From UHGV virus genome UHGV-0371537: DNA of 64,000 bases; one strand, given 5' to 3'. Origin of the DNA: a virus. Under the pieces are notes generated by a model that saw nothing but the letters and a program-made list of their open reading frames with translations, was not told the DNA's origin and ran no database searches. Made by a program: the position numbers and the translations under genes. How positions within the stretch are numbered: position 1 is the stretch's first letter; each line of letters begins with the position of its first letter. Below are positions 1,808-42,456 of the stretch, piece by piece.

Positions 1808-2470
1808 ATGGAAAAACTTTATTCTATTATCGTCGGTCCTGATCCCGACGGATTATTCTTCGCCCCGTTGTCCTATGTCGCCCACGCCCGTATCGGCAGT
1901 CATTACGCGTATTGCACACATGGTCACGACGGTTCCAATGTGCTCCATTATAGTCGCCTGAACGATTTCCTGGCACTTCAACCAGAAGACGTTGTGCTGG
2001 CGCGTCGCGTGTTCATTGATTTCAACGCGATGCACAACAACGAAATCGACGCTCGCTACCATGCCATGCGTTCTATGGAAGGGCGAGACTGCATTTATCG
2101 TATCGACCATTTTGGTGAGTTTACCCAATCGATCGATTGGTTCGTTTCGGACAAGACATTGGGCGAAAGAATTGTCACGACTCCGTGGGTGCATGCGGAA
2201 CAACTTCGTGTGTCTACCGATGCGTACAAAGAAGTCGACAATCTGTGCAACAAGTTCCGCATCTCGGTGACCTGTAATCAAGACCTGGGAGAAGAGATCC
2301 AATGGACAGCTGAGTCTCCTCATTTCAGTGACCTGGTGATGACAGCAGAAACCCGTTCCCGCGCTGTCGTTCAGTTGGTTCTATGGGCGTTCTACCAGCG
2401 CACCCCGTTCTCCTACATGGGGCAGAAAGCGATTGACGAACTCCTGAAGTCTCACGCGGTGGAGGTATAA
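1808..2470 (+). CDS. hypothetical protein
   Basis: ORF track 1793-2470; ATG 1808 in context ctatatcATG. Confidence 0.5.
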   Translation: MEKLYSIIVGPDPDGLFFAPLSYVAHARIGSHYAYCTHGHDGSNVLHYSRLNDFLALQPEDVVLARRVFIDFNAMHNNEIDARYHAMRSMEGRDCIYRIDHFGEFTQSIDWFVSDKTLGERIVTTPWVHAEQLRVSTDAYKEVDNLCNKFRISVTCNQDLGEEIQWTAESPHFSDLVMTAETRSRAVVQLVLWAFYQRTPFSYMGQKAIDELLKSHAVEV

Positions 2471-2471
2471 C

Positions 2472-2759
2472 ATGGCTGGCGTATGGTGTGATGTCTTGCT
2501 GGTTCGATACAGCGTAAATGGGTGCGCCCAAGTGCGTTCCACCTTCTATCCGGTTCCATTCTCTTCCGGCGGCCTGACAATTCAAAGAGTTCTCGACATA
2601 GAGTCAGAACTGAACAAACGATCTTGGGGTGTGCGTGGTGTACAAGTCCTGGGGTACGATCTTCTGAATGAAATGATGGTTGAAGAAGACAAAGTTGAGA
2701 CTGTCATTGGTCGCCCGGAGATGGAATTGTTAATCTCCAAATCGGAGGTCAAATCATGA
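2472..2759 (+). CDS. hypothetical protein
   Basis: ATG 2472 preceded by ggagg (2461-2465). Confidence 0.45.
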   Translation: MAGVWCDVLLVRYSVNGCAQVRSTFYPVPFSSGGLTIQRVLDIESELNKRSWGVRGVQVLGYDLLNEMMVEEDKVETVIGRPEMELLISKSEVKS

Positions 2760-3004
2760 GTCCCAACATGGCAATAATCTGGGTTGGTGAATCGTCAATA
2801 CGTTGTCTTCACAAGACGATCACCTTCTTGGATGATGAGCGCCTGGCCGAACAACGGGTTGAAGTCCGCGAAATGCAGGTTTCTTCAAAGGCGGTGAACG
2901 TTCCTGTGTCTAATGTTCAGACTTTTAAGCCTTGCGTCAGAGTGATTTGTGAACGCTGTGGATGTTATGGCACGATGACGACTGAAGACGTGGCGAAAGG
3001 CTAA
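2756..3004 (+). CDS. hypothetical protein
   Basis: ATGA overlap with upstream gene; Cys-containing C-terminus. Confidence 0.4.
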   Translation: MSPNMAIIWVGESSIRCLHKTITFLDDERLAEQRVEVREMQVSSKAVNVPVSNVQTFKPCVRVICERCGCYGTMTTEDVAKG

Positions 3005-3097
3005 TAATTTCGCTTTATTCAATATGTTTTGTTAGGTAAGCTGTAGTCCTCTTGTAGTGAACATGAAAGTAAACATTAACCCAACGGAGAAATCCAG

Positions 3098-3376
3098 ATG
3101 AATCGTACTGAATTTGTTGCCCACATTGCTTCGACCCAGAACATCACCAAAGGCGAAGCGGAGAAAGTAGTGGCATCCTTTATCGACGGCGTTAAAACTG
3201 CAGTTGCTGCAGGTGCGTCTGTACAGCTGGTCGGCTTCGGCGCGTTCGAAGTTAAAGCGCAAGAAGCGCGTGAAGGTCGCAACCCTCTGAACGGCCAGAC
3301 CATTCAGATCGCGGCGAAAAACGTTGTGAAATTCAAAGTGGGCGAAGGTCTGAAGAACGCTGCCAACGGCAAGTAA
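3098..3376 (+). CDS. HU/IHF-family DNA-binding protein
   Basis: 92 aa; MNRTEFVAHIA...VQLVGFGAFEV...EGRNPLNGQTIQIAA matches the HU signature (GFGxF, RNPxTG-like arm). Confidence 0.9.
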   Translation: MNRTEFVAHIASTQNITKGEAEKVVASFIDGVKTAVAAGASVQLVGFGAFEVKAQEAREGRNPLNGQTIQIAAKNVVKFKVGEGLKNAANGK

Positions 3377-3427
3377 TTCTATCTGACGCGCGGCCTGGCT
3401 CTGCGACGCAGGGTATGGCAAAAGAGA

Positions 3428-3454
3428 AAGCCGGGGCAAACGCTCCGGCTTTTT
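3428..3454 (+). terminator. rho-independent terminator after HU-like gene
   Basis: 10-bp GC-rich stem, loop aaac, then TTTTT. Confidence 0.7.
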
Positions 3455-3504
3455 CGTTCCTGGGAATCGGTTAAACTAAAGGCGAATCCCATAGGAGGAA
3501 GCAA

Positions 3505-5223
3505 GTGACAGCATTCAATCAATATACCAAGGCGCTTGATGGCGTCGGACCAGTTAGCATAGACCGCATCAAGTCTCTTGCCACTGAGTTCTTCCCATAC
3601 GACACCGCCAACCCCGGCCAGATGGAGTGCATCGTTGAAGCCGTTGATGCCCTTGTGAATAAGAAATTCAAACACGTGATCATCGAGGCTCCAACTGGTG
3701 TGGGCAAATCCCTCATTGGCACGACCATCCATAACGTGCTTCGCCATCTGGTTCTTGAGCGCAACCCATATGGTCAGTTCCGCACGTCTATCACGACGCC
3801 GACCAAAGGGCTACAGGATCAGTATGCGGCGGAGAAAGCCGTGGCGATAGACATCCTGAAGGGTAAGAAAAACTATCGTTGCCATATCAGTCCCGACCTG
3901 TACTACAACGCCATTCAGTGTCGTATGGCATGCCGTGACGGCCACTGTAGTAAGAATCGTTGCCCATATGTTCAGGCTCGTCGTCTTTGGACGGATATCT
4001 CCTCCCTGCGCTGCACCAACGCCGCCATGATGGTGGAGATGTGCACGACGATCTGTATGAAGCCCGAAAACCGCGCCGATATGCTGATCCTTGACGAGTG
4101 CCATAAGATGCCCTCTACGCTCCTAGAGCACACGATCATGGAATACAGTATAAATGCTGTAAGAGGGTTGCTTACAATCCCCGAGGGAGTGCCTATCGTG
4201 GAGACCATCACGGATATCATCAGGCGCACAGAAAACTATGAGCTGGGCAAGCTGTACTCACTAACAGGTGAGATGCATGCGATCTTTGACGACCTGCATG
4301 ACAAGGTTGAAGCCCTCTTAGAAACCCTTGAGGAACTGGTAGAAGACGAGCGCCTGACGGAAGCTCAGGTGATGAAGCTGTCTGACATCATTGACACCCT
4401 TCACAACCTCAGCGACTACTGTGGCATCATGGGTCAGACCAACGCCAGCACCTTCATCGTTCAGGAAAAAGACAAGGGTATGATCCAGTTCAAGCCTGTC
4501 ATCGCATCTGATGTGTCTCAGTTCGGCCTGTTCCGCAAGGGCGATTACCATGTTCACATGTCAGCGACCATCTGCGGGATTGAGTCCTATGCTCGTTCTC
4601 TGGGTATCCGTGAGGGCGAATATCACAAGATTCAAATCGGCAACCCCATCCCGATTGAGAATCGTAAGGTCAACTACATGCCCGTCATGAAGATGTCGGC
4701 CAACATGGGCGACTACGAGATGAAGAAGCTGGCCGAGTACGTGGATGAGATCATTGCATTCCATCCAGGACAGTCTGGCATCATTCACACAGTCAGTTAT
4801 GACCGCGCTCTGGCTCTACAGAAGTTCAGCAAGTACCGGAATATGATTCACGTTCCTCGTACTCGTAAGGCTCTGATGGATATCATGGAGCAGGCGTTCA
4901 GGACGAAGACGCCTTGTGTCATCGCCAGTCCGGCTATGGAAGAGGGGTATGACTTCAAAGGCGATTACAGCCGCTTCCAGATCCTGATCAAGGTTCCATA
5001 CGATTACCTTGGTGACCCGCTTGTGGCTCATGTAAACAGTGTAGACCCTTCGGCATACTTCAGGATGGCGGTACTGCGTATCGTGCAGATGTGCGGGCGC
5101 TCGGTCAGGGGTGTGAATGACTGGGCTGCGACATACATCCTTGATTCTTCATTTGAATCATTAATGATGCGCAACCCAGAGTTCTTCCCCGCATGGTTCA
5201 CCGATGCTGTGTTCGAGGTTTAG
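3505..5223 (+). CDS. SF2 helicase with DinG/XPD-like features (possible Fe-S helicase)
   Basis: GTG start after aggagg; Q-motif PGQM, Walker A EAPTGVGKS, DECH box, cluster of Cys (RCH..QC..AC..HC..RC) between Walker A and B as in XPD/DinG Fe-S domains. Confidence 0.7.
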   Translation: MTAFNQYTKALDGVGPVSIDRIKSLATEFFPYDTANPGQMECIVEAVDALVNKKFKHVIIEAPTGVGKSLIGTTIHNVLRHLVLERNPYGQFRTSITTPTKGLQDQYAAEKAVAIDILKGKKNYRCHISPDLYYNAIQCRMACRDGHCSKNRCPYVQARRLWTDISSLRCTNAAMMVEMCTTICMKPENRADMLILDECHKMPSTLLEHTIMEYSINAVRGLLTIPEGVPIVETITDIIRRTENYELGKLYSLTGEMHAIFDDLHDKVEALLETLEELVEDERLTEAQVMKLSDIIDTLHNLSDYCGIMGQTNASTFIVQEKDKGMIQFKPVIASDVSQFGLFRKGDYHVHMSATICGIESYARSLGIREGEYHKIQIGNPIPIENRKVNYMPVMKMSANMGDYEMKKLAEYVDEIIAFHPGQSGIIHTVSYDRALALQKFSKYRNMIHVPRTRKALMDIMEQAFRTKTPCVIASPAMEEGYDFKGDYSRFQILIKVPYDYLGDPLVAHVNSVDPSAYFRMAVLRIVQMCGRSVRGVNDWAATYILDSSFESLMMRNPEFFPAWFTDAVFEV

Positions 5224-5987
5224 TAACCCGCCACGAAGGACAGATGGCATTTGACATTAGGTTCCAATGATGTCACTGAAATTGTCATGCTGTCCGAATC
5301 TTGGCTGAAACTAATGTTGGCGAGAGGTTTGGTCTGTATGTGATTGTAGATGCTGTAGAACAGATCCTCGCCACGATACCCGACCTTGCCATCGGTGTCC
5401 TGCCAATGCCCCAGGGTTTCATCGTATACATGCACACGAAACTCGATCATGTGGAAGAGTGCCTTGGGGATGTCTTTGAGTATACTGGTGCCAACCACCG
5501 GAATCTCAATAGCTGAATCATTAGAATTCCCTTCATAGACCGAAGCCCATGCGAAGGTAGGATCACCGCCTGCAACAGGTGTACGCTTCCAGTATTGGAA
5601 CTCAGGGTTGCCTGAAGTGTTCTTCTGAAGTAGAATGACTTCGCCACCTGTGAAGTTCGTGGTGTCAATGTCATCTCTCTCAAGTACATCGGCCGGAGAC
5701 CCAATAAATTTCCAGCCTTCGCGATCCAGAAGAGACTTATAATAGTCGGTGAACACGTTGCTATCGCCAGCGGAGTTGATGGCGTCTTTGAGGCCTTGGC
5801 CTGTCACCATCTCATTCAGGCGAAGCCACATGTCCTTGACGGCAGACGCAGCTGCGACCTGCCCGACAGTCCCACCTGCAGTGTAATCATAGATGATATC
5901 TTCGAACTTGATAGCATCATTGATGGACAAGAGCAGTTGCTCAATCTGCGGTGCGGTGAGACTGAAACGATATGCGCGGGGTGCCAT
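5220..5987 (-). CDS. late-expressed protein, probable virion component (unassigned)
   Basis: ATG at 5987 with AGAGGA RBS; TATAAATA late-promoter box 35 nt upstream on minus strand; no family recognised. Confidence 0.55.
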   Translation of the reverse strand: MAPRAYRFSLTAPQIEQLLLSINDAIKFEDIIYDYTAGGTVGQVAAASAVKDMWLRLNEMVTGQGLKDAINSAGDSNVFTDYYKSLLDREGWKFIGSPADVLERDDIDTTNFTGGEVILLQKNTSGNPEFQYWKRTPVAGGDPTFAWASVYEGNSNDSAIEIPVVGTSILKDIPKALFHMIEFRVHVYDETLGHWQDTDGKVGYRGEDLFYSIYNHIQTKPLANISFSQDSDSMTISVTSLEPNVKCHLSFVAGY

Positions 5988-6022
5988 AGTTTCATTCCTC
6001 TTTCTATAAAACCAGTTTGGGA

Positions 6023-6030
6023 TATTTATA
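6023..6030 (-). promoter_or_regulatory. T4-type late promoter box TATAAATA
   Basis: Plus-strand tatttata 6023-6030; 35 nt upstream of minus-strand ATG 5987. Confidence 0.5.
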
Positions 6031-6032
6031 TC

Positions 6033-6560
6033 ATGATAGAAATTTATTCTGACGGGGGTTCTAACCCGAAGACCAACCAGGCCGCAGGCTGGGCATTTGC
6101 CATTAAGCCGATGTCGGGTATGCAATGGAAAGTGTTCTTTGGGCACCTTCCGCCGCCATCGACGAATAATATCGCCGAGTTGTTGGGAGTCACGAACGCA
6201 TTGAAATTACTGTGGGCATTCTCTAGAAAGGGTGAGCGCAGCATACCGGACGTCCGCATCTGGTCCGACAGCCAATACACCATCAATAGCGTACTGGAGT
6301 GGCGAGCGAAGTGGGAGTATCAGGGGTTCCCGGAAAAGAACGTTGAACTCATAAAAGATCTGTTCAGGATCTATGATCTCGTTAGTTCAATTTGTGAAGT
6401 TGAACTAAAATGGGTCAAAGGTCATGCGGGTGTTGAAGGTAACGAACTCGCAGACACGTGGGCTACTGCAGCCAAGAATGACAGCAACTTCCTGATTGAG
6501 AACGACAAGATCTCTGTGAAGAAAGTTGTTGGATCTTTTGATGAATTTATCGGTATCTGA
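6033..6560 (+). CDS. rnhA: ribonuclease HI
   Basis: MIEIYSDGGS...AELLG...KWVKGHAGVEGNELADTWA = RNase H type 1 catalytic motifs; start at internal ATG 6033 of ORF 5796-6560. Confidence 0.85.
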   Translation: MIEIYSDGGSNPKTNQAAGWAFAIKPMSGMQWKVFFGHLPPPSTNNIAELLGVTNALKLLWAFSRKGERSIPDVRIWSDSQYTINSVLEWRAKWEYQGFPEKNVELIKDLFRIYDLVSSICEVELKWVKGHAGVEGNELADTWATAAKNDSNFLIENDKISVKKVVGSFDEFIGI

Positions 6561-6571
6561 GGGTTCCCACA

Positions 6572-7300
6572 ATGGGTATGAATTATGTTGATCGTGGCGA
6601 GAATGTCGTCAAATATTTTACGGACGAAGATAACGAGCGTGTCATCAGTATCCTTCGTGACTGGATCCCCGCCCGTAAGAAAGCACTGGCCGAAGGAACA
6701 AGACTTCCAAAGATCCCCAACTATGTTGCTGTCCAAGTCCAGCGCATCATCACCAAGATGAGCACCCGCTACAATTATCGTGACTATCCCTTCCGTGAGG
6801 ACATGGTCTCTGAAGCCGTCGTGAACATCCTTCGTTACCTCCACACGTTTGACGTCGGCCATGTGGGCAAGAAAGGCAAAATCAATTTCTTTTCCTGGGT
6901 GACCATGTGTGCTGATCGTTCCTTCGCTCGCAAACTGAACATTGAAGAAGAACACACTTACATCAAGTTGCGCTCCTTTGAAGAGGCAGGCGGTTTCGCA
7001 GGGCTGGCTGATGACCCAGATTTCCAACAAGAGGTCTTCGTTGATGCTACTGGGATTGGTATGGACTTCCGCGAGCGCATCGGTAACTTCGAAAACAAGA
7101 AGGACGCCCAAAGACAGCGGGAACGCGAAAAGGTAGAGACCGCCCGAGCCGCTGAATCGAACAAAAAGATAGCGAAAGGCATACTTCAATACATGTCTCA
7201 GGGTAAGAATACCCCAACAGCGCAGGCCGAAGACGATTCAGATCAGGACTTCGGTAATACCCAATTCGATCTGGAAGAAAACGAAGGAGAAACAGAATAA
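6572..7300 (+). CDS. 55: late-transcription sigma factor gp55-like
   Basis: DW..., RYNY, LHTFD, CADRSF align with T4 gp55 (DWK, RFNF, LHNFD, CFNAF); directly upstream of gp47/gp46 as in T4; acidic C-terminal tail. Confidence 0.75.
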   Translation: MGMNYVDRGENVVKYFTDEDNERVISILRDWIPARKKALAEGTRLPKIPNYVAVQVQRIITKMSTRYNYRDYPFREDMVSEAVVNILRYLHTFDVGHVGKKGKINFFSWVTMCADRSFARKLNIEEEHTYIKLRSFEEAGGFAGLADDPDFQQEVFVDATGIGMDFRERIGNFENKKDAQRQREREKVETARAAESNKKIAKGILQYMSQGKNTPTAQAEDDSDQDFGNTQFDLEENEGETE

Positions 7301-15475: not shown

Positions 15476-16048
15476 ATGAAACCTTTTATCGAATATTTTA
15501 AAGAGCAAGCTGCACAGCCTCAGACCCATGCTGGTGTCCAGGGTAAGACCGTATCCATCACCAAGCAAGCTGACGGCACCCAGTGGTGTTCCGGCGCTAC
15601 CGTGACCCAGATCACTCCTGACAATCAGGCGGATGTCTACAACCTGGAGTTAACCAACGGCAACACCATCAAGGTGAAGCTGACCCCAGACCAGACTCAC
15701 GGTATCTCCCAAGGTCAGGAAGTTGTTGCTGTCCACGATGGCTTCGAATTCTTCTTCTTCGGCAAGTCCGCCGACAAAGGCCAGGTGACTGAAGCCTATG
15801 CCCAGGAACTGGCGAACATGGACAAGATGATCGGTAAAGCACTGGGTGTTGGCAAGTCCCGCAAGAGTGGTCGCACTGAGTTCGAATACTCTGGCATCCC
15901 TGGCATCGGCAAGGCGATCACCGTGAACTTCGGCGGCGAAGATGACCCATATGTGATCGTCACCTGCAACGGCAAAGAGCAGGACATCAGCAAGGGTAAA
16001 AACCTGGCTGCTGACATTGCCAAGTTCCTCGGTGTTAAGCCTGTGTAG
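15476..16048 (+). CDS. internal-protein-like (capsid-targeting N-terminus)
   Basis: gaggag RBS; N-terminus MKPFIEYFKE resembles T4 CTS MKTYQEFIAE. Confidence 0.6.
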   Translation: MKPFIEYFKEQAAQPQTHAGVQGKTVSITKQADGTQWCSGATVTQITPDNQADVYNLELTNGNTIKVKLTPDQTHGISQGQEVVAVHDGFEFFFFGKSADKGQVTEAYAQELANMDKMIGKALGVGKSRKSGRTEFEYSGIPGIGKAITVNFGGEDDPYVIVTCNGKEQDISKGKNLAADIAKFLGVKPV

Positions 16049-16083
16049 AAGGGTGAACTTTGCAACCGGGTGAGTCGTAAAAT

Positions 16084-16108
16084 AAACCCCGCTTTTCGCG
16101 GGGTTTTG
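16084..16108. terminator. bidirectional rho-independent terminator between convergent internal-protein genes
   Basis: aaaccccgc-ttttc-gcggggttt: 9-bp stem flanked by A-run and T-run. Confidence 0.7.
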
Positions 16109-16714
16109 TTATTTCACATACATACTGACTTGTACTTTCTTACCTTTTTCGTTTTTGACGTCCATCAGCTTGGATGCACCATTCAGTTTCATGACGGTTC
16201 CGCGTTCTTTGCCGCCATTCGGTAACTCGTATTCAATATCTTCCCCAGGAGATGGCATACCCGCATGAGGTCCCATAACCATGGCGATCTTATAACGAGC
16301 CAAGCCGGGGCGACCGCCTTTATACGCATACCAACCACCTTCAGTCATTTCTTTCCATTGCTTGTTACCGTCAATGGAGATAAAGGAATTGCCCATACCT
16401 GATTTGACATCCAACAAGTCAATATATTTGCCTGATTTGTTGTACTTGACAGCGGTGTCAGTATCAACCTTGTCAATCATCTGGGCGCTGGCAAACTGTC
16501 CATCTTTCAATCCAGATGCTGAGATGATGTCTTTGGCATTGGCCAGGATTATCTTGCGACCGTCAGGGGTTTCAAAGGTGGCTTTGTCGCCACTAACACT
16601 AACTCGCAAGAAAGTGCCGATATTGTCTTCGGTGGACTTGCCGATCTTGTCTGACTTGATATGAACAGACATCGGTGGCGCGGCTTCGGTCAAAAAGTCT
16701 TGAAAAGTTTTCAT
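16109..16714 (-). CDS. internal-protein-like (capsid-targeting N-terminus)
   Basis: N-terminus MKTFQDFLTEA nearly identical in pattern to T4 CTS MKTYQEFIAEA; GGAGAA RBS. Confidence 0.65.
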   Translation of the reverse strand: MKTFQDFLTEAAPPMSVHIKSDKIGKSTEDNIGTFLRVSVSGDKATFETPDGRKIILANAKDIISASGLKDGQFASAQMIDKVDTDTAVKYNKSGKYIDLLDVKSGMGNSFISIDGNKQWKEMTEGGWYAYKGGRPGLARYKIAMVMGPHAGMPSPGEDIEYELPNGGKERGTVMKLNGASKLMDVKNEKGKKVQVSMYVK

Positions 16715-16803
16715 TTTCGTTCTCCAGTTATATTATTCTATATAGTACCTCATGGACCCATTAACACTAAATACTAGATGGTTCACAATACAGGAAACAA
16801 ATC

Positions 16804-22122: not shown

Positions 22123-22191
22123 GTAACTCACCAACACTCCCCGCCGCCTTCAATCTACGAGGGCGGCGTATAATATGTTCCGAGACTAATC

Positions 22192-22851
22192 ATGAATTAT
22201 CAAAATATCTATGACTCTCTGATACAAAGAGCCAAGACCCGTTCATTGGTTGGTTATTCTGAAACCCACCATATTATCCCTAGATGTATGGGAGGGAAAG
22301 ATGACAAACATAATCTGGTGGAGTTGACACCAGAAGAACATTATTTAGCACATCAATTGTTAGTCAAAATATATCCCAAAAATTTCAAATTAGCATTTGC
22401 AGCTAATGCTATGTGCGTAAACAATGAATTCTCCGGTAGATCTTGTAACAAATTATTCGGTTGGTTGCGGAGAAAACTTTCTCATTCCAATAAACAGATG
22501 TACAAAGACAACCCTAATTTGAGGAAAATTCGTTCCGATCAAATGAAACAGACACATGTAAAGTATTCTCATTTGCGGGAAATACAGTCTAAACGTTTGA
22601 AGGAAAACAATATATGCGTGATAAAACAACCTTGGGAAAGTAACCATGCCACCAAAGAGTCTTTGGATATATGGAAACGCGCCGACGAATATTATGATTG
22701 GTGGTTGTGCAACCAAAAAGGTTGCACGTTCATGGCGAAAGCGTTTGGGTTCAAAAACAAGACGACTCCGCATTTCACAATGATTAATAAATTTAAATCT
22801 GGGTGGAATCCCAAAGCCGACCCAGAGTGGTTAGAGTTTGTAAGTCAATAA
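22192..22851 (+). CDS. HNH homing endonuclease (free-standing)
   Basis: ETHHIIPRCMGGKDDKHNLVELTPEEHYLAH = HNH motif; A+T-rich island between phoH and nrdA. Confidence 0.75.
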   Translation: MNYQNIYDSLIQRAKTRSLVGYSETHHIIPRCMGGKDDKHNLVELTPEEHYLAHQLLVKIYPKNFKLAFAANAMCVNNEFSGRSCNKLFGWLRRKLSHSNKQMYKDNPNLRKIRSDQMKQTHVKYSHLREIQSKRLKENNICVIKQPWESNHATKESLDIWKRADEYYDWWLCNQKGCTFMAKAFGFKNKTTPHFTMINKFKSGWNPKADPEWLEFVSQ

Positions 22852-22910
22852 GCCCCGAAGAGTTTATTATTGGGGTGGAGTTCATTCACCAATAAATCCA
22901 GGAAATATAA

Positions 22911-25199
22911 ATGAGCGAAATTAACGTCATTAAGCGGGACGGATCTTCTGTCCCCTTTGATATTGAGAAACTACACGCAGTCGTAGACCGCGCATGTGAC
23001 GGCCTGCCTGGTGTATCAATGTCAGAGGTGATCGCTGCATCGAAGATTCAGTTCACCGACAACATGAGAACAGATCGCATTCAGGATATCCTCATCCAGG
23101 CTGCGGCTTCGCTGATCTCTGTAGACAAACCCAATTACCAGTATGTGGCTGCTCGCCTGAAGTCATATGATCTGCGCAAGGCTGTCTATGGCCAGTACAA
23201 GCCGCCTCACCTGCTGGATATCTTCGTCAAGAACATCAAACAGCGTGTGTATGATCGTGAGTTCCTTGATCTCTACACGACCGAAGAGTTCAACGAGCTG
23301 AACGATGTTATCAACCACAAACGTGACAAGAACTTCACCTGGGCGGCCATGGGTCAGCTGACAGAGAAGTATCTGCTGCGTGACCGTTCCAAGAAGGACA
23401 GCAAGATCTTCTATGAAACCCCACAGGTCATGTACATGGGCATCGCCATGGCGTTGTTCTCCAACTGGGACAAAGACAGCCGCCTGGATATGGTGAAGAA
23501 GTTCTATGAATATGCCAGCACAGGCAAGTTCAGTCTTCCAACCCCGATTATGGCAGGCGTTCGTACTCCTACCCGTCAGTTCAGTTCCTGCGTGTTGATC
23601 AAAACTGGTGACACCCTGGACTCTATCAACGCAACAGCCAAGACCATCGTTGACTATGTGTCCAAACGTGCGGGTATCGGCTTCGACATCGGGGCGATAC
23701 GTGGGATTGGTAGTCCTATTCGCGGCGGAGAGATGGTTCACACAGGCCTGATCCCATTCATCAAGTATCTCACTGGGGCGCTCAAGTCTTGCTCCCAGGG
23801 CGGCATTCGTGGTGGTGCAGCAACAGCTTATATCCCTCTGTGGCATTACCAGTTCGATGACGTCGTTGTACTGAAGAATAACCGTGGCACTGAAGAAAAC
23901 CGCGAACGCCGTATCGACTACGGTATTCAGATCAACCGCGTGATGTTTGAGCGCCTGGTTGCCAAGCAGCCTCTGTATCTGTTCGACCCGAAAGACAACC
24001 GCGAAATGTACGAAGCATACTTCTCCGACGTCGACAAGTTCCGTACTCTGTATGAGAACATGATCAAGGCCGCCGATGCTGGTCTGGTACGTTCTAAGAA
24101 GCTGCAGGCTGAAGAAGTGTTCCAGATGCTGTTAGACCAGCGTTCAGACACAGGCCGCATCTACATCGCATTTGTCGATCACATGAATGAATACAGCCCA
24201 TTCAACCTCGACACGATCTACAGCTCCAACCTGTGTCTTGAAATCGCCCTGCCGACCCGTGAGTTTGAGCAGTACAACGATGAAAACGGGCGCGTGGCTC
24301 TGTGCACCCTGGCTTCCTTTAACCTGACGGCGTTCGAAGACCCGACTGAGATGGAAGACGTGGCGTTTGTGTTGGTGTCTGCGCTGGACATGCTGTTGGA
24401 ATATCAGGACTATCCGGCAATCCAGGCTCGTAAGGCTGTTGAGGATTATCGCCCTCTGGGTGTTGGTATCGTGAACGTGGCTCACTTCTTGGCCAAGAAC
24501 TTCACAGGCTATGGTTCTCCGGCTGGTCTTGAGATGTTGGATGCGTGGATGGCACACCTGCACTACTATCTGGTCAAGGCATCCAACCGTCTGGCGATGA
24601 AGTTCGGTGCATGCAAACGTGGAACCATCCACAATAATGGGCAGGTCACTGCCGATCTTCAGCCGCTTCCACTTGATATCCTGCCGAATGGTAAGAAACC
24701 GGAAGGCATGGCATACGGCCTGGATTGGGAAGAACTGAAGGATGATCTGAAGACCTATGGTATCCGCAATGCCACCCTGCTGGCAGTAGCCCCTACCGAA
24801 AGCTCCTCACAAGTCCTCAACGCAACGAACGGCATTGAGCCACCGAAGGGCTTGGTAAGCATTAAGGGCAGCAAGGACGGCACGTACAAGCAGGTCGTTC
24901 CGGATGTAGAGACCCTTGGACCGCTGTATGACCTGAAGTGGGACCTGGAATGCATCGAGTACCTGAAGACCGCTGCTGTCATCCAGCGCTGGGTTGACCA
25001 GTCCATCAGTACCAACACATGGTATGACCCAGAGAAGTACCCTGACGGCAAGATCCCTCGTGCTAAGATGATGCAGGATATCCTGTCGTTCTATATGTGG
25101 GGTGGTAAGACTCTGTATTACAACACGAACAAGGACGCCAAGGAAGACGAAGAGCTGAAACAGGCTGATGCCGTGGAATGTGAAAGTTGTATCGTGTAG
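22911..25199 (+). CDS. nrdA: ribonucleotide reductase class Ia alpha subunit
   Basis: 762 aa; N-terminal ATP-cone VIKRDGSSVPFDIEKL; active-site region NLCLEIALP; C-terminal CESC redox pair. Confidence 0.95.
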   Translation: MSEINVIKRDGSSVPFDIEKLHAVVDRACDGLPGVSMSEVIAASKIQFTDNMRTDRIQDILIQAAASLISVDKPNYQYVAARLKSYDLRKAVYGQYKPPHLLDIFVKNIKQRVYDREFLDLYTTEEFNELNDVINHKRDKNFTWAAMGQLTEKYLLRDRSKKDSKIFYETPQVMYMGIAMALFSNWDKDSRLDMVKKFYEYASTGKFSLPTPIMAGVRTPTRQFSSCVLIKTGDTLDSINATAKTIVDYVSKRAGIGFDIGAIRGIGSPIRGGEMVHTGLIPFIKYLTGALKSCSQGGIRGGAATAYIPLWHYQFDDVVVLKNNRGTEENRERRIDYGIQINRVMFERLVAKQPLYLFDPKDNREMYEAYFSDVDKFRTLYENMIKAADAGLVRSKKLQAEEVFQMLLDQRSDTGRIYIAFVDHMNEYSPFNLDTIYSSNLCLEIALPTREFEQYNDENGRVALCTLASFNLTAFEDPTEMEDVAFVLVSALDMLLEYQDYPAIQARKAVEDYRPLGVGIVNVAHFLAKNFTGYGSPAGLEMLDAWMAHLHYYLVKASNRLAMKFGACKRGTIHNNGQVTADLQPLPLDILPNGKKPEGMAYGLDWEELKDDLKTYGIRNATLLAVAPTESSSQVLNATNGIEPPKGLVSIKGSKDGTYKQVVPDVETLGPLYDLKWDLECIEYLKTAAVIQRWVDQSISTNTWYDPEKYPDGKIPRAKMMQDILSFYMWGGKTLYYNTNKDAKEDEELKQADAVECESCIV

Positions 25200-39765: not shown

Positions 39766-40812
39766 ATGGAAATCAAAGCAATTAACAACAATGACATGCT
39801 GAAAAAGGCTGTCTTGGCTATCCGCGAATACGGGATTGAGTCAGACCCTGGCAACGCGGAGATTAACACGGACGGCACCCGCTTCCTTGATGGTGTGACG
39901 ATTACCGTGGATGATATCCGTGACCGCTGGCTGTCTGTTGAAGGTCGTAACTCATCGGCTATCGCTGCCATCGGCGAGACCTTCTGGGTTCTGTCCGGGC
40001 GCGATGACGTTCGCTTCCTGTCCCGTGTGTTGCCCCGCGCCGCCAACTTTTCCGACAACGGCCACACATGGCGAGCCGCTTATGGTCCGCGTCTGTACGC
40101 CCATGGCCAGCTGGATAGCGTCATCAACCGCCTGCGTAAGAACCCAAACACTCGCCAGGCGTACCTCACCATCTATGACCCGGCTCTGGATTCAGATGCT
40201 GGCCTGGCGAAGTTCAGCGAGAGTGGCGAAGCGAAGACTAAAGACATGGTGTGTAACCTGGCTCTGTTGTTCGCCATCGTTGAAGGTCGTCTGAACCTGA
40301 CGGTCATCAACCGCTCGCAAGATGTTCTGTGGGGTATGAGTTCAATCAATTTCATTGAGTTCTCTATCCTTCAGGAAGTGATTGCTCAGGTGCTGGATGT
40401 TGATGTCGGTCAGTACAAGCTCTTCTCCAACAATCTTCATTACTACAACAATGAAGTCAGCCAGAAGCAGCTGGGCAAGATCACGAAGGACACCAAAGTA
40501 GAAGCTGGGTTCATCAACTCCATGATTCACTTCAAGAACGTGACCAACCAGAACCATATCCGGAATCTGTTCACTGGTGTGCTTCATCATTGTGATATCG
40601 GTAGCCCTTGGGAAACTGTGGTCGCCCACCTGAAGGAATATGATGCTGATCGCGGCCTGATTGTACAGATGGCATACTGCCTGTATTGTAAGCTGAACGA
40701 CAAGCTCATCAACATGAACCTGATTCAGGATCATGGTCTGAACATCGCGCTCACCCATTCCCCGGTTGACCGCAAGATCGTTGATCCTAAGTTCCTGGAA
40801 GGTGCAGCATGA
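39766..40812 (+). CDS. thymidylate-synthase-superfamily enzyme, probable pyrimidine-nucleotide hydroxymethylase (gene-42 position)
   Basis: TDGTRF, catalytic-Cys region DMVCNLALLF, INRSQDVLWGMSSINF align to TS motifs (PCH..., YQRSxDVFLGxPFNIASY) but lack the PCH His; about 80-aa C-terminal extension. Confidence 0.65.
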   Translation: MEIKAINNNDMLKKAVLAIREYGIESDPGNAEINTDGTRFLDGVTITVDDIRDRWLSVEGRNSSAIAAIGETFWVLSGRDDVRFLSRVLPRAANFSDNGHTWRAAYGPRLYAHGQLDSVINRLRKNPNTRQAYLTIYDPALDSDAGLAKFSESGEAKTKDMVCNLALLFAIVEGRLNLTVINRSQDVLWGMSSINFIEFSILQEVIAQVLDVDVGQYKLFSNNLHYYNNEVSQKQLGKITKDTKVEAGFINSMIHFKNVTNQNHIRNLFTGVLHHCDIGSPWETVVAHLKEYDADRGLIVQMAYCLYCKLNDKLINMNLIQDHGLNIALTHSPVDRKIVDPKFLEGAA

Positions 40813-41378
40813 TGTACCCAAACCTTGAATTCTTTACGGGGCGCAAGCGCTCTGGTAAGGACTTCTGTTTGGAGTCCCTCATCAGCTATCACCATCTACA
40901 GGGCGATATGGATATCCAACGCCTTTCGTTCTCGGACGAACTGCGCCGGGTTGCCAACTACATCTACCCATGGCTGCCAGCGGAGGTAGAGGATGCCGTG
41001 AAGGACGTTCCTTACGTCCACCCTGATAACCCCAAGGGCTTAACCCCAAGGCAGATCTGGCTCCATCTCGGCAGCGATACGGGCTTGCGTTACGTACAGC
41101 CTGATCTGTTCCTGGCGTTCTTCAAGCGCTTCCAGCTTCCTCTGGTAGAGCAGAACCCTCACGTCCATTATATCGTGAGTGATCTGCGCACCCCTCAGGA
41201 ATATGAATGGGCGCTGAGTACGAAATGTCCTATCACCCGCATTTCAAAGGCCGACCGCGCTGGTATCATAGAGGACGATATAGAGGCTTTCATTGACAAG
41301 ATGGAAGTCGACTACGAATTCCTCAATCCATTTGATGGTTGGGCACCGTTCGTTAAATTCTACGGAGAACGTAAATGA
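40809..41378 (+). CDS. 1: deoxynucleoside monophosphate kinase (gp1-like)
   Basis: N-terminal FFTGRKRSGKD matches T4 gp1 FLSGVKRSGKD. Confidence 0.7.
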   Translation: MMYPNLEFFTGRKRSGKDFCLESLISYHHLQGDMDIQRLSFSDELRRVANYIYPWLPAEVEDAVKDVPYVHPDNPKGLTPRQIWLHLGSDTGLRYVQPDLFLAFFKRFQLPLVEQNPHVHYIVSDLRTPQEYEWALSTKCPITRISKADRAGIIEDDIEAFIDKMEVDYEFLNPFDGWAPFVKFYGERK

Positions 41379-41914
41379 TCACAGCAGGGCATATCAAAAG
41401 CCTGCTCGAACTCCAAAAGGCCACTAATGTGGCCTACTTTGGCGACGAGTGGCGAAACCACTGGACTGAAGTCGCGGTGGTGAACTCTGTATACCGCGAG
41501 TGGGCTGAGTTCCTTGACGAAGTATCCAGCAGCTGGAAGATATATGGCAGCGACCAGAAATGGCACCAGGTGAACGCGATTTACGAATTGGTGGACGTTG
41601 TTCACTTCATGCTGTCGCGTTTGCTACTGTCCAATCAGGCCATAGAAATTGAAATGCGTGACGAATACTTTGGTGTGGAAATTACTAAAGTCAATAACTT
41701 CAATGTCGTCACCACTATGTTCACAACGTTCATGACAGCACCGACCTGTCAGAATCTGGCGTACTTTATTGCGTATGCTTGTCCCTATTTGGGTATCGAC
41801 TTTGAAACCTACATGCTGGCACACAAGCGCAAGAACGATCGCAATCGTCTGCGTGCTGCTGGCGGTGCGGATTACGATAAGTCCGCCGAAACCCCTCTGA
41901 CCCTGGAGTTCTAA
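41375..41914 (+). CDS. 56: dCTP/dUTP pyrophosphatase gp56-like (all-alpha NTP-PPase)
   Basis: AIYELVDVVHFMLSRL resembles T4 gp56 FELVDIFHFVLNMF. Confidence 0.6.
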   Translation: MITAGHIKSLLELQKATNVAYFGDEWRNHWTEVAVVNSVYREWAEFLDEVSSSWKIYGSDQKWHQVNAIYELVDVVHFMLSRLLLSNQAIEIEMRDEYFGVEITKVNNFNVVTTMFTTFMTAPTCQNLAYFIAYACPYLGIDFETYMLAHKRKNDRNRLRAAGGADYDKSAETPLTLEF

Positions 41915-42456
41915 TGTTTACAGTCGTCGTTTCATATCATGCAGACAACGCGGCGAACGCATCCGCTAATTTCACCGAGCACATCATCGGCGGCGGCCAT
42001 AATGTATTCCTCACCGAATACACCAGGCCTGTTAAACCGGGCGACGGTCTTTCGGCGACTGTTACACACAAGATCGCCAGCGAAGAACCTGAATCTCTGT
42101 TCCGGATGATCGAAGAGTATGCAGGCGGCGGGGTAGAAATACCCGAAGCGCTGCTGGACGTGTACTTCGAAGGAGCGATCTATTACATCCACGCCATACC
42201 GAAGGATGTATCTACGGAGCAGTTGATGTATATCCTGAACATTGCGCTGAATTGTGCCTGCATCAACCGCACGAACTACAACAATCTGCGCAATATGTAC
42301 CTAACCGACCGACATAATGAAGCGGCTTCGCCTGTTGAGATGATGTCTCTGAAGAGCATCCAAGAGGCGGTCAACATTTTGTCCCAGAAGGTTATGGGTG
42401 TAGAATTATTAACGACGATCAACAATAAAGAGGAAGTGAAATGGCCAGTTCATTAA
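41914..42456 (+). CDS. hypothetical protein (occupies the position of beta-glucosyltransferase in T4)
   Basis: 180 aa; no recognisable motif; too short for a GT-B glycosyltransferase. Confidence 0.5.
   Translation: MFTVVVSYHADNAANASANFTEHIIGGGHNVFLTEYTRPVKPGDGLSATVTHKIASEEPESLFRMIEEYAGGGVEIPEALLDVYFEGAIYYIHAIPKDVSTEQLMYILNIALNCACINRTNYNNLRNMYLTDRHNEAASPVEMMSLKSIQEAVNILSQKVMGVELLTTINNKEEVKWPVH

What the first reader, a model, noticed from the sequence alone, without database searches (positions are those of the whole stretch)
3098..5223. HU-like protein followed by a DinG/XPD-like helicase
A clear HU homologue (3098-3376) is followed by a helicase with EAPTGVGKS, a DECH box and a Cys cluster between the Walker motifs, reminiscent of the Fe-S domain of XPD/DinG helicases. 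T4 encodes Dda, UvsW and gp41 but no DinG-type helicase or HU, so this pair looks like a lineage-specific replication/repair addition.
Basis: partly seen in the sequence, partly recalled or inferred. Interest (0 to 1): 0.45.

Follow-up and report, generated by a model that had tools for sequence, protein, structure and literature searches.

The report
Phage HU protein and XPD/DinG-type helicase
This stretch of an Ackermannviridae (ViI-like) phage genome encodes an ordinary HU-type DNA-bending protein and, as a separate gene after a terminator, an accessory DNA helicase of the XPD/DinG iron-sulfur family; both are already annotated in hundreds of related phages, so the finding is correct but not new.

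Summary
The window is about 93% identical in DNA to Agtrevirus/Limestonevirus phages of the Ackermannviridae.

- **HU gene (3098-3376, +):** it encodes a 92-aa HU/IHF-family protein (Pfam PF00216, E 2e-29).
- **Helicase gene (3505-5223, +):** it encodes a 572-aa SF2 helicase. It carries the XPD/DinG C-terminal domain (PF13307). A profile of 23 relatives matches solved DinG, XPD, Rad3, FANCJ and CHL1 chains and nothing of UvsW type.
- **Cysteines:** four (C126, C139, C148, C153) lie between motif Ia and the DECH box and are kept in 119 of 119 relatives. Three align with the E. coli DinG positions C120, C199 and C205, which I recall from the literature as Fe-S ligands.

Two refinements apply. 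A conserved intrinsic terminator separates the two genes, and distant Ackermannviridae keep the helicase without an adjacent HU gene, so the "pair" is a neighbourhood and not shown to be a unit. The helicase is also not special to this lineage: it occurs in many large phages and haloarchaeal viruses.

Novelty is low. Cluster binding, helicase polarity and the in vivo role remain untested.

The parts
2992..3020 (+). Weak hairpin (GCGAAAG...CTTTCGC type, 7 bp) followed by TTTATT, at the end of the upstream ORF. It is a possible terminator that isolates the HU gene on its 5' side.
   Evidence: Read directly from the sequence. The fold of 2985-3097 is not better than shuffles (z 0.45), so this is tentative.
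3098..3376 (+). HU/IHF-family DNA-binding protein, 92 aa. It has the beta-arm motif R-E-G-R-N-P with the intercalating proline at residue 63.
   Evidence: PF00216 E 1.8e-29 and phrog_379 E 1.5e-35. It matches solved HU/IHF/TF1 chains at E 6e-21 to 1e-11. G60, N62 and P63 are invariant in alignment A4.
3424..3460 (+). Intrinsic terminator between HU and the helicase. It has a 14-bp G+C-rich stem (GAGAAAGCCGGGGC / GCTCCGGCTTTTTC) whose 3' arm runs into TTTTTCGTT.
   Evidence: The spacer fold is -54.2 kcal/mol with z -3.9. The stem is kept and the loop differs in LIMEstone1 and SKML-39. Vi01 keeps the hairpin with a G-C to A-U swap. The LIMEstone1 record annotates a terminator in this spacer.
3493..3498 (+). 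Shine-Dalgarno AGGAGG, 6 nt before the GTG start of the helicase.
   Evidence: Read directly from the sequence. It is conserved in LIMEstone1, SKML-39 and Vi01.
3505..5223 (+). XPD/DinG-family SF2 helicase, 572 aa.
3685..3711 (+). Motif I / Walker A, EAPTGVGKS (residues 61-69).
   Evidence: P63, G65, G67 and K68 are kept in 119 of 119 homologues.
3880..3963 (+). Compact four-cysteine module (C126-x12-C139-x8-C148-x4-C153), the predicted 4Fe-4S site, inserted between motif Ia and motif II.
   Evidence: All four cysteines are kept in 119 of 119 homologues, while the neighbouring C143 is kept in only 42 of 119. C126, C148 and C153 align with DinG C120, C199 and C205. Phage relatives at 26-29% identity also carry a four-cysteine set here.
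4093..4104 (+). Motif II / Walker B, DECH (residues 197-200).
   Evidence: D197, E198 and H200 are kept in 119 of 119 homologues, and C199 in 111 of 119.
4117..4437 (+). Mostly helical insertion (about residues 205-311) between motifs II and III, at the position of the Arch domain of XPD/DinG. The boundaries are approximate.
   Evidence: The model's secondary structure shows helices H217-241, H255-279 and H286-311. The stretch aligns to the DinG region 256-400 in hhalign. 477-484 residues align to DinG structures.
4558..4578 (+). Motif III, MSATICG (residues 352-358).
   Evidence: T355 is kept in 119 of 119 homologues and S353 in 116 of 119.
5086..5112 (+). Motif VI, QMCGRSVRG (residues 528-536).
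   Evidence: Q528, G531, R532 and R535 are kept in 119 of 119 homologues.
5220..5987 (-). Convergent late gene (a virion structural protein in LIMEstone1) that overlaps the helicase stop codon by 4 nt. It is context only and not part of the helicase function.
   Evidence: phrog_3833 matches from residue 54 of the long ORF, which corresponds to nt 5987. LIMEstone1 ORF093 is a 'confirmed structural protein'. TATAAATA lies at 6030-6023 on the minus strand.

Best explanation
These are two independent, conserved genes of the replication/recombination region of an Ackermannviridae phage.

(1) The 92-aa protein is an HU-type nucleoid-associated protein. Like HU, it most likely acts as a dimer that inserts its proline-tipped beta-arms into the minor groove and bends or compacts DNA. 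In doing so it would serve as an architectural cofactor on the phage genome. Its gene is followed by its own intrinsic terminator.

(2) The 572-aa protein is an accessory SF2 helicase of the XPD/DinG/Rad3 group. It has two RecA-like motor domains. A very compact four-cysteine module (C126, C139, C148, C153) is inserted in the first domain and most likely holds a 4Fe-4S cluster. A helical Arch-like insertion is also present.

By analogy with its family, the helicase should load on single-stranded DNA, translocate 5'->3' and open forks, D-loops or R-loops. It would do this alongside the phage's own replicative gp41-like helicase, UvsX, RNase HI and the gp46/47 nuclease encoded nearby.

What is shown here: family membership by sequence and fold, invariance of the four cysteines, the terminator, and the distribution. 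What is inferred: cluster binding, polarity, substrates, and the role of HU.
For: - **Phage identity:** 93% nt identity to SKML-39, LIMEstone1 and Ag3.
- **HU:** PF00216 at 102 bits. It matches solved HU/IHF/TF1 chains. The GRNP arm motif is invariant.
- **Helicase, sequence:** PF13307 at 47 bits against a cut-off of 25. A profile of 23 homologues hits DinG at 2e-19, XPD at 2e-14, and Rad3, FANCJ and CHL1. hhalign against E. coli DinG gives 99.2% over 504 columns.
- **Cysteines and motifs:** four cysteines are kept in 119 of 119 homologues, and all SF2 motifs are invariant. Relatives at 26-29% identity from Rhizobium phage, halovirus and Bacillus phage G also carry a four-cysteine set there.
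- **Terminator:**
- **Replication context:** a gp41-like helicase, UvsX and a ligase are in the same window. RNase HI, gp55 and gp47/46 lie downstream. Metagenomic relatives sit beside UvsX, DnaB_C and RNR genes.
Against: - No experiment on any member was found in the searched literature.
- The window protein itself does not reach Pfam DEAD_2 (PF06733), the Fe-S-containing N-terminal domain model. Only 3 of 23 relatives do.
- The second invariant cysteine (C139) is 4 residues away from the column of DinG C194. The Fe-S module is only 28 residues from first to last cysteine, against 86 in E. coli DinG, so ligand geometry could differ or the site could bind zinc.
- Model coordinates could not be inspected, so Cys-Cys distances are not verified.
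- Scores against the curated DinG, YoaA and Rad3 equivalogs are far below cut-off.
Confidence: 0.8

Rival explanations
1. The helicase is a UvsW-like (or otherwise generic SF2) branch-migration enzyme, and the cysteines are incidental.
Against: No UvsW chain appears in the sequence or profile searches. UvsW aligns over only 173-209 residues, against 385-484 for the eight DinG/XPD-family hits that rank above the first generic SF2 hit. The four cysteines are invariant in 119 of 119 homologues while other cysteines vary.
Confidence: 0.03
2. The four invariant cysteines form a structural zinc site rather than a 4Fe-4S cluster. The protein would be an XPD/DinG-fold helicase without redox chemistry.
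For: The module is unusually short, C-x12-C-x8-C-x4-C over 28 residues. One ligand column is shifted relative to DinG. Some family members are known to have lost the cluster: CasDinG has a vestigial FeS domain and S. aureus DinG lacks it (from my own knowledge, not tested here).
Against: Three of the four cysteines align with the DinG positions C120, C199 and C205, which I recall from the literature as Fe-S ligands. The CPY/CPF context of the last ligand is shared with DinG.
Confidence: 0.15
3. HU and the helicase are a co-adapted functional pair, for example with HU loading or stimulating the helicase.
For: Adjacency is kept in essentially all enterobacterial Ackermannviridae. About 283 records carry the helicase and about 270 carry HU at >=60% identity. 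The same order is seen in LIMEstone1, SKML-39 and Vi01.
Against: A conserved intrinsic terminator separates the genes. These genomes are colinear throughout, so adjacency carries little information. Vibrio K444, Aeromonas phiA8-29 and Acinetobacter SH-Ab 15599 keep the helicase with no HU gene annotated within 5 kb. Metagenomic relatives show no HU-family (PF00216) gene among the called neighbours.
Confidence: 0.1
4. The HU protein is a functional analogue of SPO1 TF1. It would be tuned to bind the phage's own hypermodified (5-hmdU-derived) DNA and so help to discriminate phage from host DNA for transcription or packaging.
For: - ViI-type phages carry 5-NeOmdU derived from 5-hmdU (PMC5889632, PMC6449724).
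- The window encodes a divergent thymidylate-synthase homologue, a dNMP kinase and an NTP pyrophosphohydrolase.
- SPO1 TF1 is an HU homologue whose site-specific binding needs hmU-DNA (Greene et al. 1986, cited in PMC6449724).
- TF1 is a detectable relative (E 6e-12), and some phage records already label this gene 'transcription factor 1'.
Against: - The protein is closer to ordinary HU/IHF (73-77 bits) than to TF1 (48 bits), and is only 39% identical to a TF1-like protein.
- It lacks TF1's C-terminal extension (92 aa against 101).
- HU homologues also occur in SPbeta-like, 0305phi8-36, Ralstonia and Burkholderia phages, which as far as I know are not reported to carry hmU DNA.
- No binding data exist.
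Confidence: 0.2
5. The helicase is a CRISPR type IV (CasDinG/Csf4-like) or other defence or anti-defence component carried by the phage.
Against: No cas genes or repeats are annotated in the neighbourhood of relatives, which consists of replication, recombination and late genes. The gene is present in every Ackermannviridae genome examined and in other large phages, next to UvsX, gp41 and RNR genes. The phage-family model scores five times higher (869 bits).
Confidence: 0.04

Closest known systems
E. coli DinG (PDB 6FWR/6FWS) and bacterial DinG/YoaA helicases
   Different: The phage protein is 572 aa against 716. The segment between the first and second cysteine is 12 residues against 73. The second invariant cysteine is shifted by 4 residues. 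Identity is about 18-21%, and the score is 65 bits against the NCBIfam equivalog cut-off of 598, so it is not an orthologue.
Archaeal XPD / eukaryotic XPD-Rad3 (PDB 3CRV, 2VL7, 2VSF, 4A15, 5FMF)
   Different: There is no TFIIH or NER partner context. The Fe-S module is shorter. Pfam DEAD_2 is not reached by the window protein.
Finegoldia magna DinG (PDB 9KQH)
   Different: Identity is 16%, and 9KQH is about 170 residues longer. I did not examine its domain content further.
CasDinG / Csf4 of type IV CRISPR systems (PDB 8E2W, 8S35)
   Different: There is no CRISPR context. The phage protein keeps four invariant cysteines, whereas CasDinG is described as having a vestigial, cluster-free FeS domain (from my own knowledge, not tested here).
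Bacterial HU / IHF and SPO1 TF1 (PDB 1HUU, 3RHI, 1IHF, 1WTU)
   Same: It matches PF00216 over its full length. The length is about the same (92 aa against about 90), and the R-x-G-R-N-P arm with the intercalating proline is present.
   Different: It scores below every curated HU-alpha, HU-beta, IHF-alpha and IHF-beta equivalog cut-off. The nearest cellular relatives found are Bacteroidota HU at about 53% identity, and E. coli HU scores lower (56-58 bits) than Bacillus HU (70-73 bits), so it is not a recent host capture. It lacks the TF1 C-terminal tail.

Membership tests
XPD/DinG/Rad3 Fe-S helicases (SF2) | SF2 motor motifs I, Ia, II (DExH), III, V and VI | tested here: met
   APTGxGK, TKGLQDQY, DECH, SATICG, EGYDxKGD and QxxGRxxRG are invariant or nearly so in 119 homologues.
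XPD/DinG/Rad3 Fe-S helicases (SF2) | Helicase_C_2 (PF13307) C-terminal domain above the gathering score | tested here: met
   47.3 bits against a cut-off of 25.3. All 23 aligned relatives also match.
XPD/DinG/Rad3 Fe-S helicases (SF2) | Four conserved cysteines inserted in HD1 between motif Ia and motif II | tested here: met
   C126, C139, C148 and C153 are kept in 119 of 119 homologues. Three align with DinG C120, C199 and C205. The fourth is shifted 4 residues from the C194 column.
XPD/DinG/Rad3 Fe-S helicases (SF2) | The cysteines actually bind a 4Fe-4S cluster | not testable with these tools
   This needs spectroscopy and metal analysis.
XPD/DinG/Rad3 Fe-S helicases (SF2) | Arch domain inserted in HD1 between motifs II and III, and an overall four-domain fold | tested here: met
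XPD/DinG/Rad3 Fe-S helicases (SF2) | Pfam DEAD_2 (PF06733) N-terminal model | tested here: not met
   There is no hit for the window protein at E <= 0.01. Only 3 of 23 relatives hit, with best E 2e-5. The shortened Fe-S module probably explains this.
XPD/DinG/Rad3 Fe-S helicases (SF2) | 5'->3' translocation on ssDNA | not testable with these tools
   This is inferred from family membership only.
Bacterial DinG / YoaA orthologues (NCBIfam equivalogs) | Score above the curated equivalog cut-off | tested here: not met
   DinG scores 65.5 against a cut-off of 598, YoaA 57.7 against 680, and rad3 25 against 247. The protein is a distinct phage subfamily (phrog_2488).
T4 UvsW-type helicase | Best sequence or fold match to UvsW | tested here: not met
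HU/IHF (type II DNA-binding proteins, PF00216) | Full-length match above the gathering score, and the beta-arm R-x-G-R-N-P with the intercalating proline | tested here: met
   102 bits against 22.4, covering residues 1-90 of a 90-position model. G60, N62 and P63 are invariant in A4.
HU/IHF (type II DNA-binding proteins, PF00216) | Dimer that bends DNA | not testable with these tools
   This is inferred from family membership.
SPO1 TF1-like hmU-DNA-specific HU | Closest relationship to TF1, a C-terminal tail, and a preference for hmU-DNA | tested here: not met
   TF1 scores 48 bits against 70-77 bits for HU/IHF. The protein has no C-terminal extension and is 39% identical to a TF1-like protein. 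DNA preference is not testable here.

The most novel reading that the evidence does not exclude
The phage subfamily (phrog_2488) may be a minimal XPD/DinG helicase. Its 28-residue Fe-S module would act as a redox or iron sensor, or as a strand-separation wedge. The enzyme would work with the neighbouring RNase HI to clear R-loops or blocked forks on hypermodified phage DNA. In parallel, the HU protein would be tuned, like SPO1 TF1, to recognise the modified DNA. Together they would mark and maintain phage DNA as distinct from host DNA.
Probability: 0.1. Interest if true: 0.45.

Novelty: already known. Interest (0 to 1): 0.15.

Why it matters
The practical value is better annotation. The generic labels 'DNA helicase', 'type III restriction enzyme res subunit' and 'hypothetical protein' used in more than 200 Ackermannviridae genomes can be replaced by 'XPD/DinG-family Fe-S helicase'.

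The family also offers a compact (about 570 aa, 28-residue Cys module) model for studying what the Fe-S domain does in this helicase class.

The HU gene is a candidate for asking how architectural proteins deal with hypermodified thymidine. None of this overturns current understanding.

Tried and rejected
- **UvsW-type assignment:** rejected.
- **Orthology to bacterial DinG, YoaA or Rad3:** rejected, because scores are far below the curated cut-offs.
- **Operon or functional-pair idea:** weakened by the conserved terminator and by the lack of adjacency in distant family members.
- **Link between the helicase and thymidine hypermodification:** this was prompted by the PhiW-14 homologue. It was rejected because the helicase also occurs in haloarchaeal viruses, Rhizobium phages, Bacillus phage G and Lak phages. 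No SPO1-like phage or Pseudomonas phage M6 appeared among the records shown.
- **Defence or CRISPR role:** considered because of the PADLOC hit and rejected on context.
- **Promoter and terminator consensus scan of 2400-6700:** it gave no more sites than shuffles and missed the spacer hairpin. No T4-type late promoter (TATAAATA) precedes either gene; the only one nearby drives the convergent late gene.
- **Rfam scan of the whole window:** no hits.
- **Literature searches for experimental work on these two genes:** they returned only genome-announcement-type mentions.
- **Small insertions relative to SKML-39:** they have no Pfam match.
Full report
**What the window is.** The region 3000-5300 is 92.6-93.8% identical in DNA to Salmonella phage SKML-39, Dickeya phage LIMEstone1, Shigella phage Ag3 and other Aglimvirinae. 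It is 60-80% identical to about 170 Kuttervirus-type phages. The window is colinear with SKML-39 apart from a few small indels. The source is therefore an Ackermannviridae (ViI-like) myovirus. It is not a T4-proper phage, but it has a T4-like replication and late-transcription core. Downstream genes are RNase HI, a gp55-like late sigma factor and gp47/gp46. A gp41-like DnaB-type helicase, UvsX, a ligase and a divergent thymidylate-synthase homologue lie further along.

- The ORF at 3098-3376 (+) encodes 92 aa and matches Pfam Bac_DNA_binding over its whole length (E 1.8e-29, 102 bits, cut-off 22.4). It also matches phrog_379 and solved HU, IHF and SPO1 TF1 chains (E 6e-21 to 1e-11). The arm motif REGRNP, with the intercalating proline at residue 63, is conserved.
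- The ORF at 3505-5223 (+) starts at a GTG, 6 nt after AGGAGG, and encodes 572 aa.
- It contains EAPTGVGKS (residues 61-69), DECH (197-200) and cysteines at 126, 139, 143, 148 and 153 between them.

**What the helicase is.**

- *Single-sequence searches.* They give Pfam Helicase_C_2, the C-terminal domain of the DinG/XPD group (E 3e-12). The best NCBIfam models are DinG, YoaA, dinG_rel and rad3, all far below their equivalog cut-offs. E. coli DinG is the best solved relative.
- *Profile searches.* A profile of 23 homologues spanning 37-83% identity (A1) sharpens this. It hits DinG at 2e-19, F. magna DinG at 1e-16, T. acidophilum XPD at 2e-14, and Rad3, human XPD, FANCJ, CHL1 and S. acidocaldarius XPD. 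No UvsW-type chain is found. hhalign of A1 against E. coli DinG, taken from MG1655, gives 99.2% probability over 504 columns.
- *Arch-like insertion.* The model shows a mostly helical insertion between motifs II and III (about residues 205-311), where the Arch domain lies in this family.

**The cysteines.** I aligned all 119 database homologues of at least 500 aa. C126, C139, C148 and C153 are each present in 119 of 119. The neighbouring C143 is present in 42 of 119, and the other cysteines vary. The four are also invariant in A1.

Relatives at 26-29% identity from a Rhizobium phage, a haloarchaeal virus and Bacillus phage G also carry a four-cysteine set in this segment. There C126, C148 and C153 are invariant, and a second cysteine lies nearby but is offset in the alignment.

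In the pairwise and profile alignments, C126 falls on DinG C120 (GKKNYRC against GRGRYVC). C148 falls on C199 and C153 on C205 (the CPY/CPF context). I recall from the DinG literature that C120, C194, C199 and C205 are the cluster ligands; I did not check that here. The column of DinG C194 is occupied by the non-conserved C143, and the invariant C139 lies four residues upstream.

The module is very compact, 28 residues from first to last cysteine, because the 73-residue segment between DinG C120 and C194 is reduced to 12. This probably explains why Pfam DEAD_2 is not reached by the window protein.

Whether the site holds 4Fe-4S or zinc cannot be settled computationally.

**Distribution.** tblastn finds the helicase in 498 phage records. 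These include all enterobacterial Ackermannviridae (80-99% identity) and Serratia phages (62%). They also include Vibrio (46%), Aeromonas phiA8-29 (41%) and Acinetobacter SH-Ab 15599 (39%). More distant hits come from Rhizobium, Agrobacterium and Ochrobactrum phages, haloarchaeal tailed viruses (annotated 'Rad3-related DNA helicase'), Bacillus phage G and Lak phages. Delftia phage PhiW-14 has a 40% identical copy.

Metagenomic relatives at about 40% identity sit next to UvsX, a DnaB_C (gp41-like) helicase, ribonucleotide reductase and thymidylate synthase genes. This is therefore a widespread accessory helicase of large phages. It is not a private invention of this lineage.

PHROGs already holds the family (phrog_2488, 'DNA helicase', 869 bits). 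GenBank records label it 'DNA helicase', 'putative ATP-dependent helicase' or 'type III restriction enzyme res subunit'.

**HU and the 'pair'.** HU at 60% identity or more occurs in about 270 phage records, nearly one-to-one with the roughly 283 helicase records at that identity. The order HU then helicase is the same in LIMEstone1, SKML-39 and Vi01. These genomes are colinear overall, so this says little.

The 128-nt spacer folds far better than shuffles (-54.2 kcal/mol, z -3.9). It contains a 14-bp G+C-rich hairpin at 3424-3455 that runs into TTTTTCGTT. The stem is kept while the loop changes in LIMEstone1 and SKML-39. Vi01 keeps the hairpin with a G-C to A-U exchange (z -5.4). The LIMEstone1 authors annotated a terminator in this spacer.

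In Vibrio K444, Aeromonas phiA8-29 and Acinetobacter SH-Ab 15599, the helicase has no HU gene annotated within 5 kb. I conclude that the two genes are neighbours, not a demonstrated unit.

The HU protein is not a recent host capture. E. coli HU chains score 56-58 bits, against 70-77 bits for Bacillus HU and IHF-alpha. The closest cellular proteins found are Bacteroidota HU at about 53% identity.

**Likely mechanism.**

- *Shown.* Family and fold membership of both proteins, the invariant Cys set, separate transcription signals, and the replication/recombination neighbourhood.
- *Inferred from the XPD/DinG family.* A monomeric 5'->3' ssDNA translocase, whose Fe-S and Arch domains form the pore and wedge, which unwinds forks, D-loops and R-loops. 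The conserved order helicase, RNase HI, gp55, gp47, gp46 in both Aglimvirinae and Vibrio phage K444 fits a role in recombination-dependent replication or R-loop removal. That is a guess.
- *Inferred for HU.* A dimeric DNA bender that helps organise phage DNA.
- *An attractive but untested idea.* HU may parallel SPO1 TF1, an HU homologue that needs hmU-DNA for site-specific binding (Greene et al. 1986, cited in PMC6449724). ViI-type phages carry 5-hmdU-derived 5-NeOmdU (PMC5889632, PMC6449724). Against this, the protein is closer to ordinary HU than to TF1 and lacks TF1's tail. HU genes also occur in SPbeta-like, 0305phi8-36, Ralstonia and Burkholderia phages, which as far as I know are not reported to carry hmU DNA.

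**An oddity.** The PADLOC model 'typeIV_DinG, CAS-IV-A associated' (PDLC01439) matches end to end at E 1.4e-50. That is better than any bacterial DinG model. With no cas context and a fivefold higher score to the phage family, I read this as shared ancestry within the DinG group and not as a CRISPR function.

**Verdict.** The feature is a known, already annotated pair of neighbouring genes in a well-sampled phage family. The only additions here are the precise family assignment, the invariant and compact four-Cys module, and the evidence that HU and the helicase are separate units. No experimental work on either gene was found in the searched literature. Interest is low (0.15).

Noticed in passing
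window 5220-5987 (-), promoter at 6030-6023 (-): A convergent late gene overlaps the helicase stop codon by 4 nt. It is a confirmed virion structural protein in LIMEstone1 (phrog_3833) and is preceded by a T4-type late promoter, TATAAATA. The mechanical ORF list extends it falsely to 6146.
   Followed up: partly
window 6033-6560 (+): An RNase HI gene (PF00075, E 1.5e-23) lies immediately downstream. The order helicase, RNase H, gp55, gp47, gp46 is also kept in the distant Vibrio phage K444 (L002).
   Followed up: partly
window 3505-5223 (+): The PADLOC model PDLC01439 ('typeIV_DinG, CAS-IV-A associated') matches the phage helicase full length (E 1.4e-50). This hints that some CRISPR type IV-associated DinG-like proteins are close to this phage subfamily.
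   Followed up: no
window 3398-3414 (+): A second, smaller hairpin lies upstream of the terminator in the HU-helicase spacer. Vi01 has a hairpin at the same place with a different sequence (L010:1376-1500). Its function is unknown.
   Followed up: no
window 39766-42456 (+): A cluster encodes a divergent thymidylate-synthase homologue (348 aa, PF00303 over only part of its length), a dNMP kinase and an NTP pyrophosphohydrolase. It is plausibly part of the 5-hmdU hypermodification pathway described for ViI.
   Followed up: partly
window 16038-16797, 22175-22920 and about 26642, compared with L005 (SKML-39): There are small insertions and deletions relative to SKML-39. The window has extra ORFs (16109-16714 on the minus strand and 22192-22851 on the plus strand) with no Pfam match. 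It lacks the homing endonuclease that SKML-39 carries after nrdB.
   Followed up: partly
window 2472-2759 (+) and 2756-3004 (+): Two small conserved genes lie just upstream of HU. One is a DUF7425 protein (E 2.5e-48). The other is an 82-aa protein of phrog_31251 with a C-terminal CxxCxC motif. Both are of unknown function.
   Followed up: no
L012 and L014 (metagenomic contigs): Relatives of the helicase at about 40% identity occur in uncultured T4-like phage contigs, beside UvsX, a gp41-like helicase, RNR, thymidylate synthase, Acb1 and SegE-type genes.
   Followed up: no
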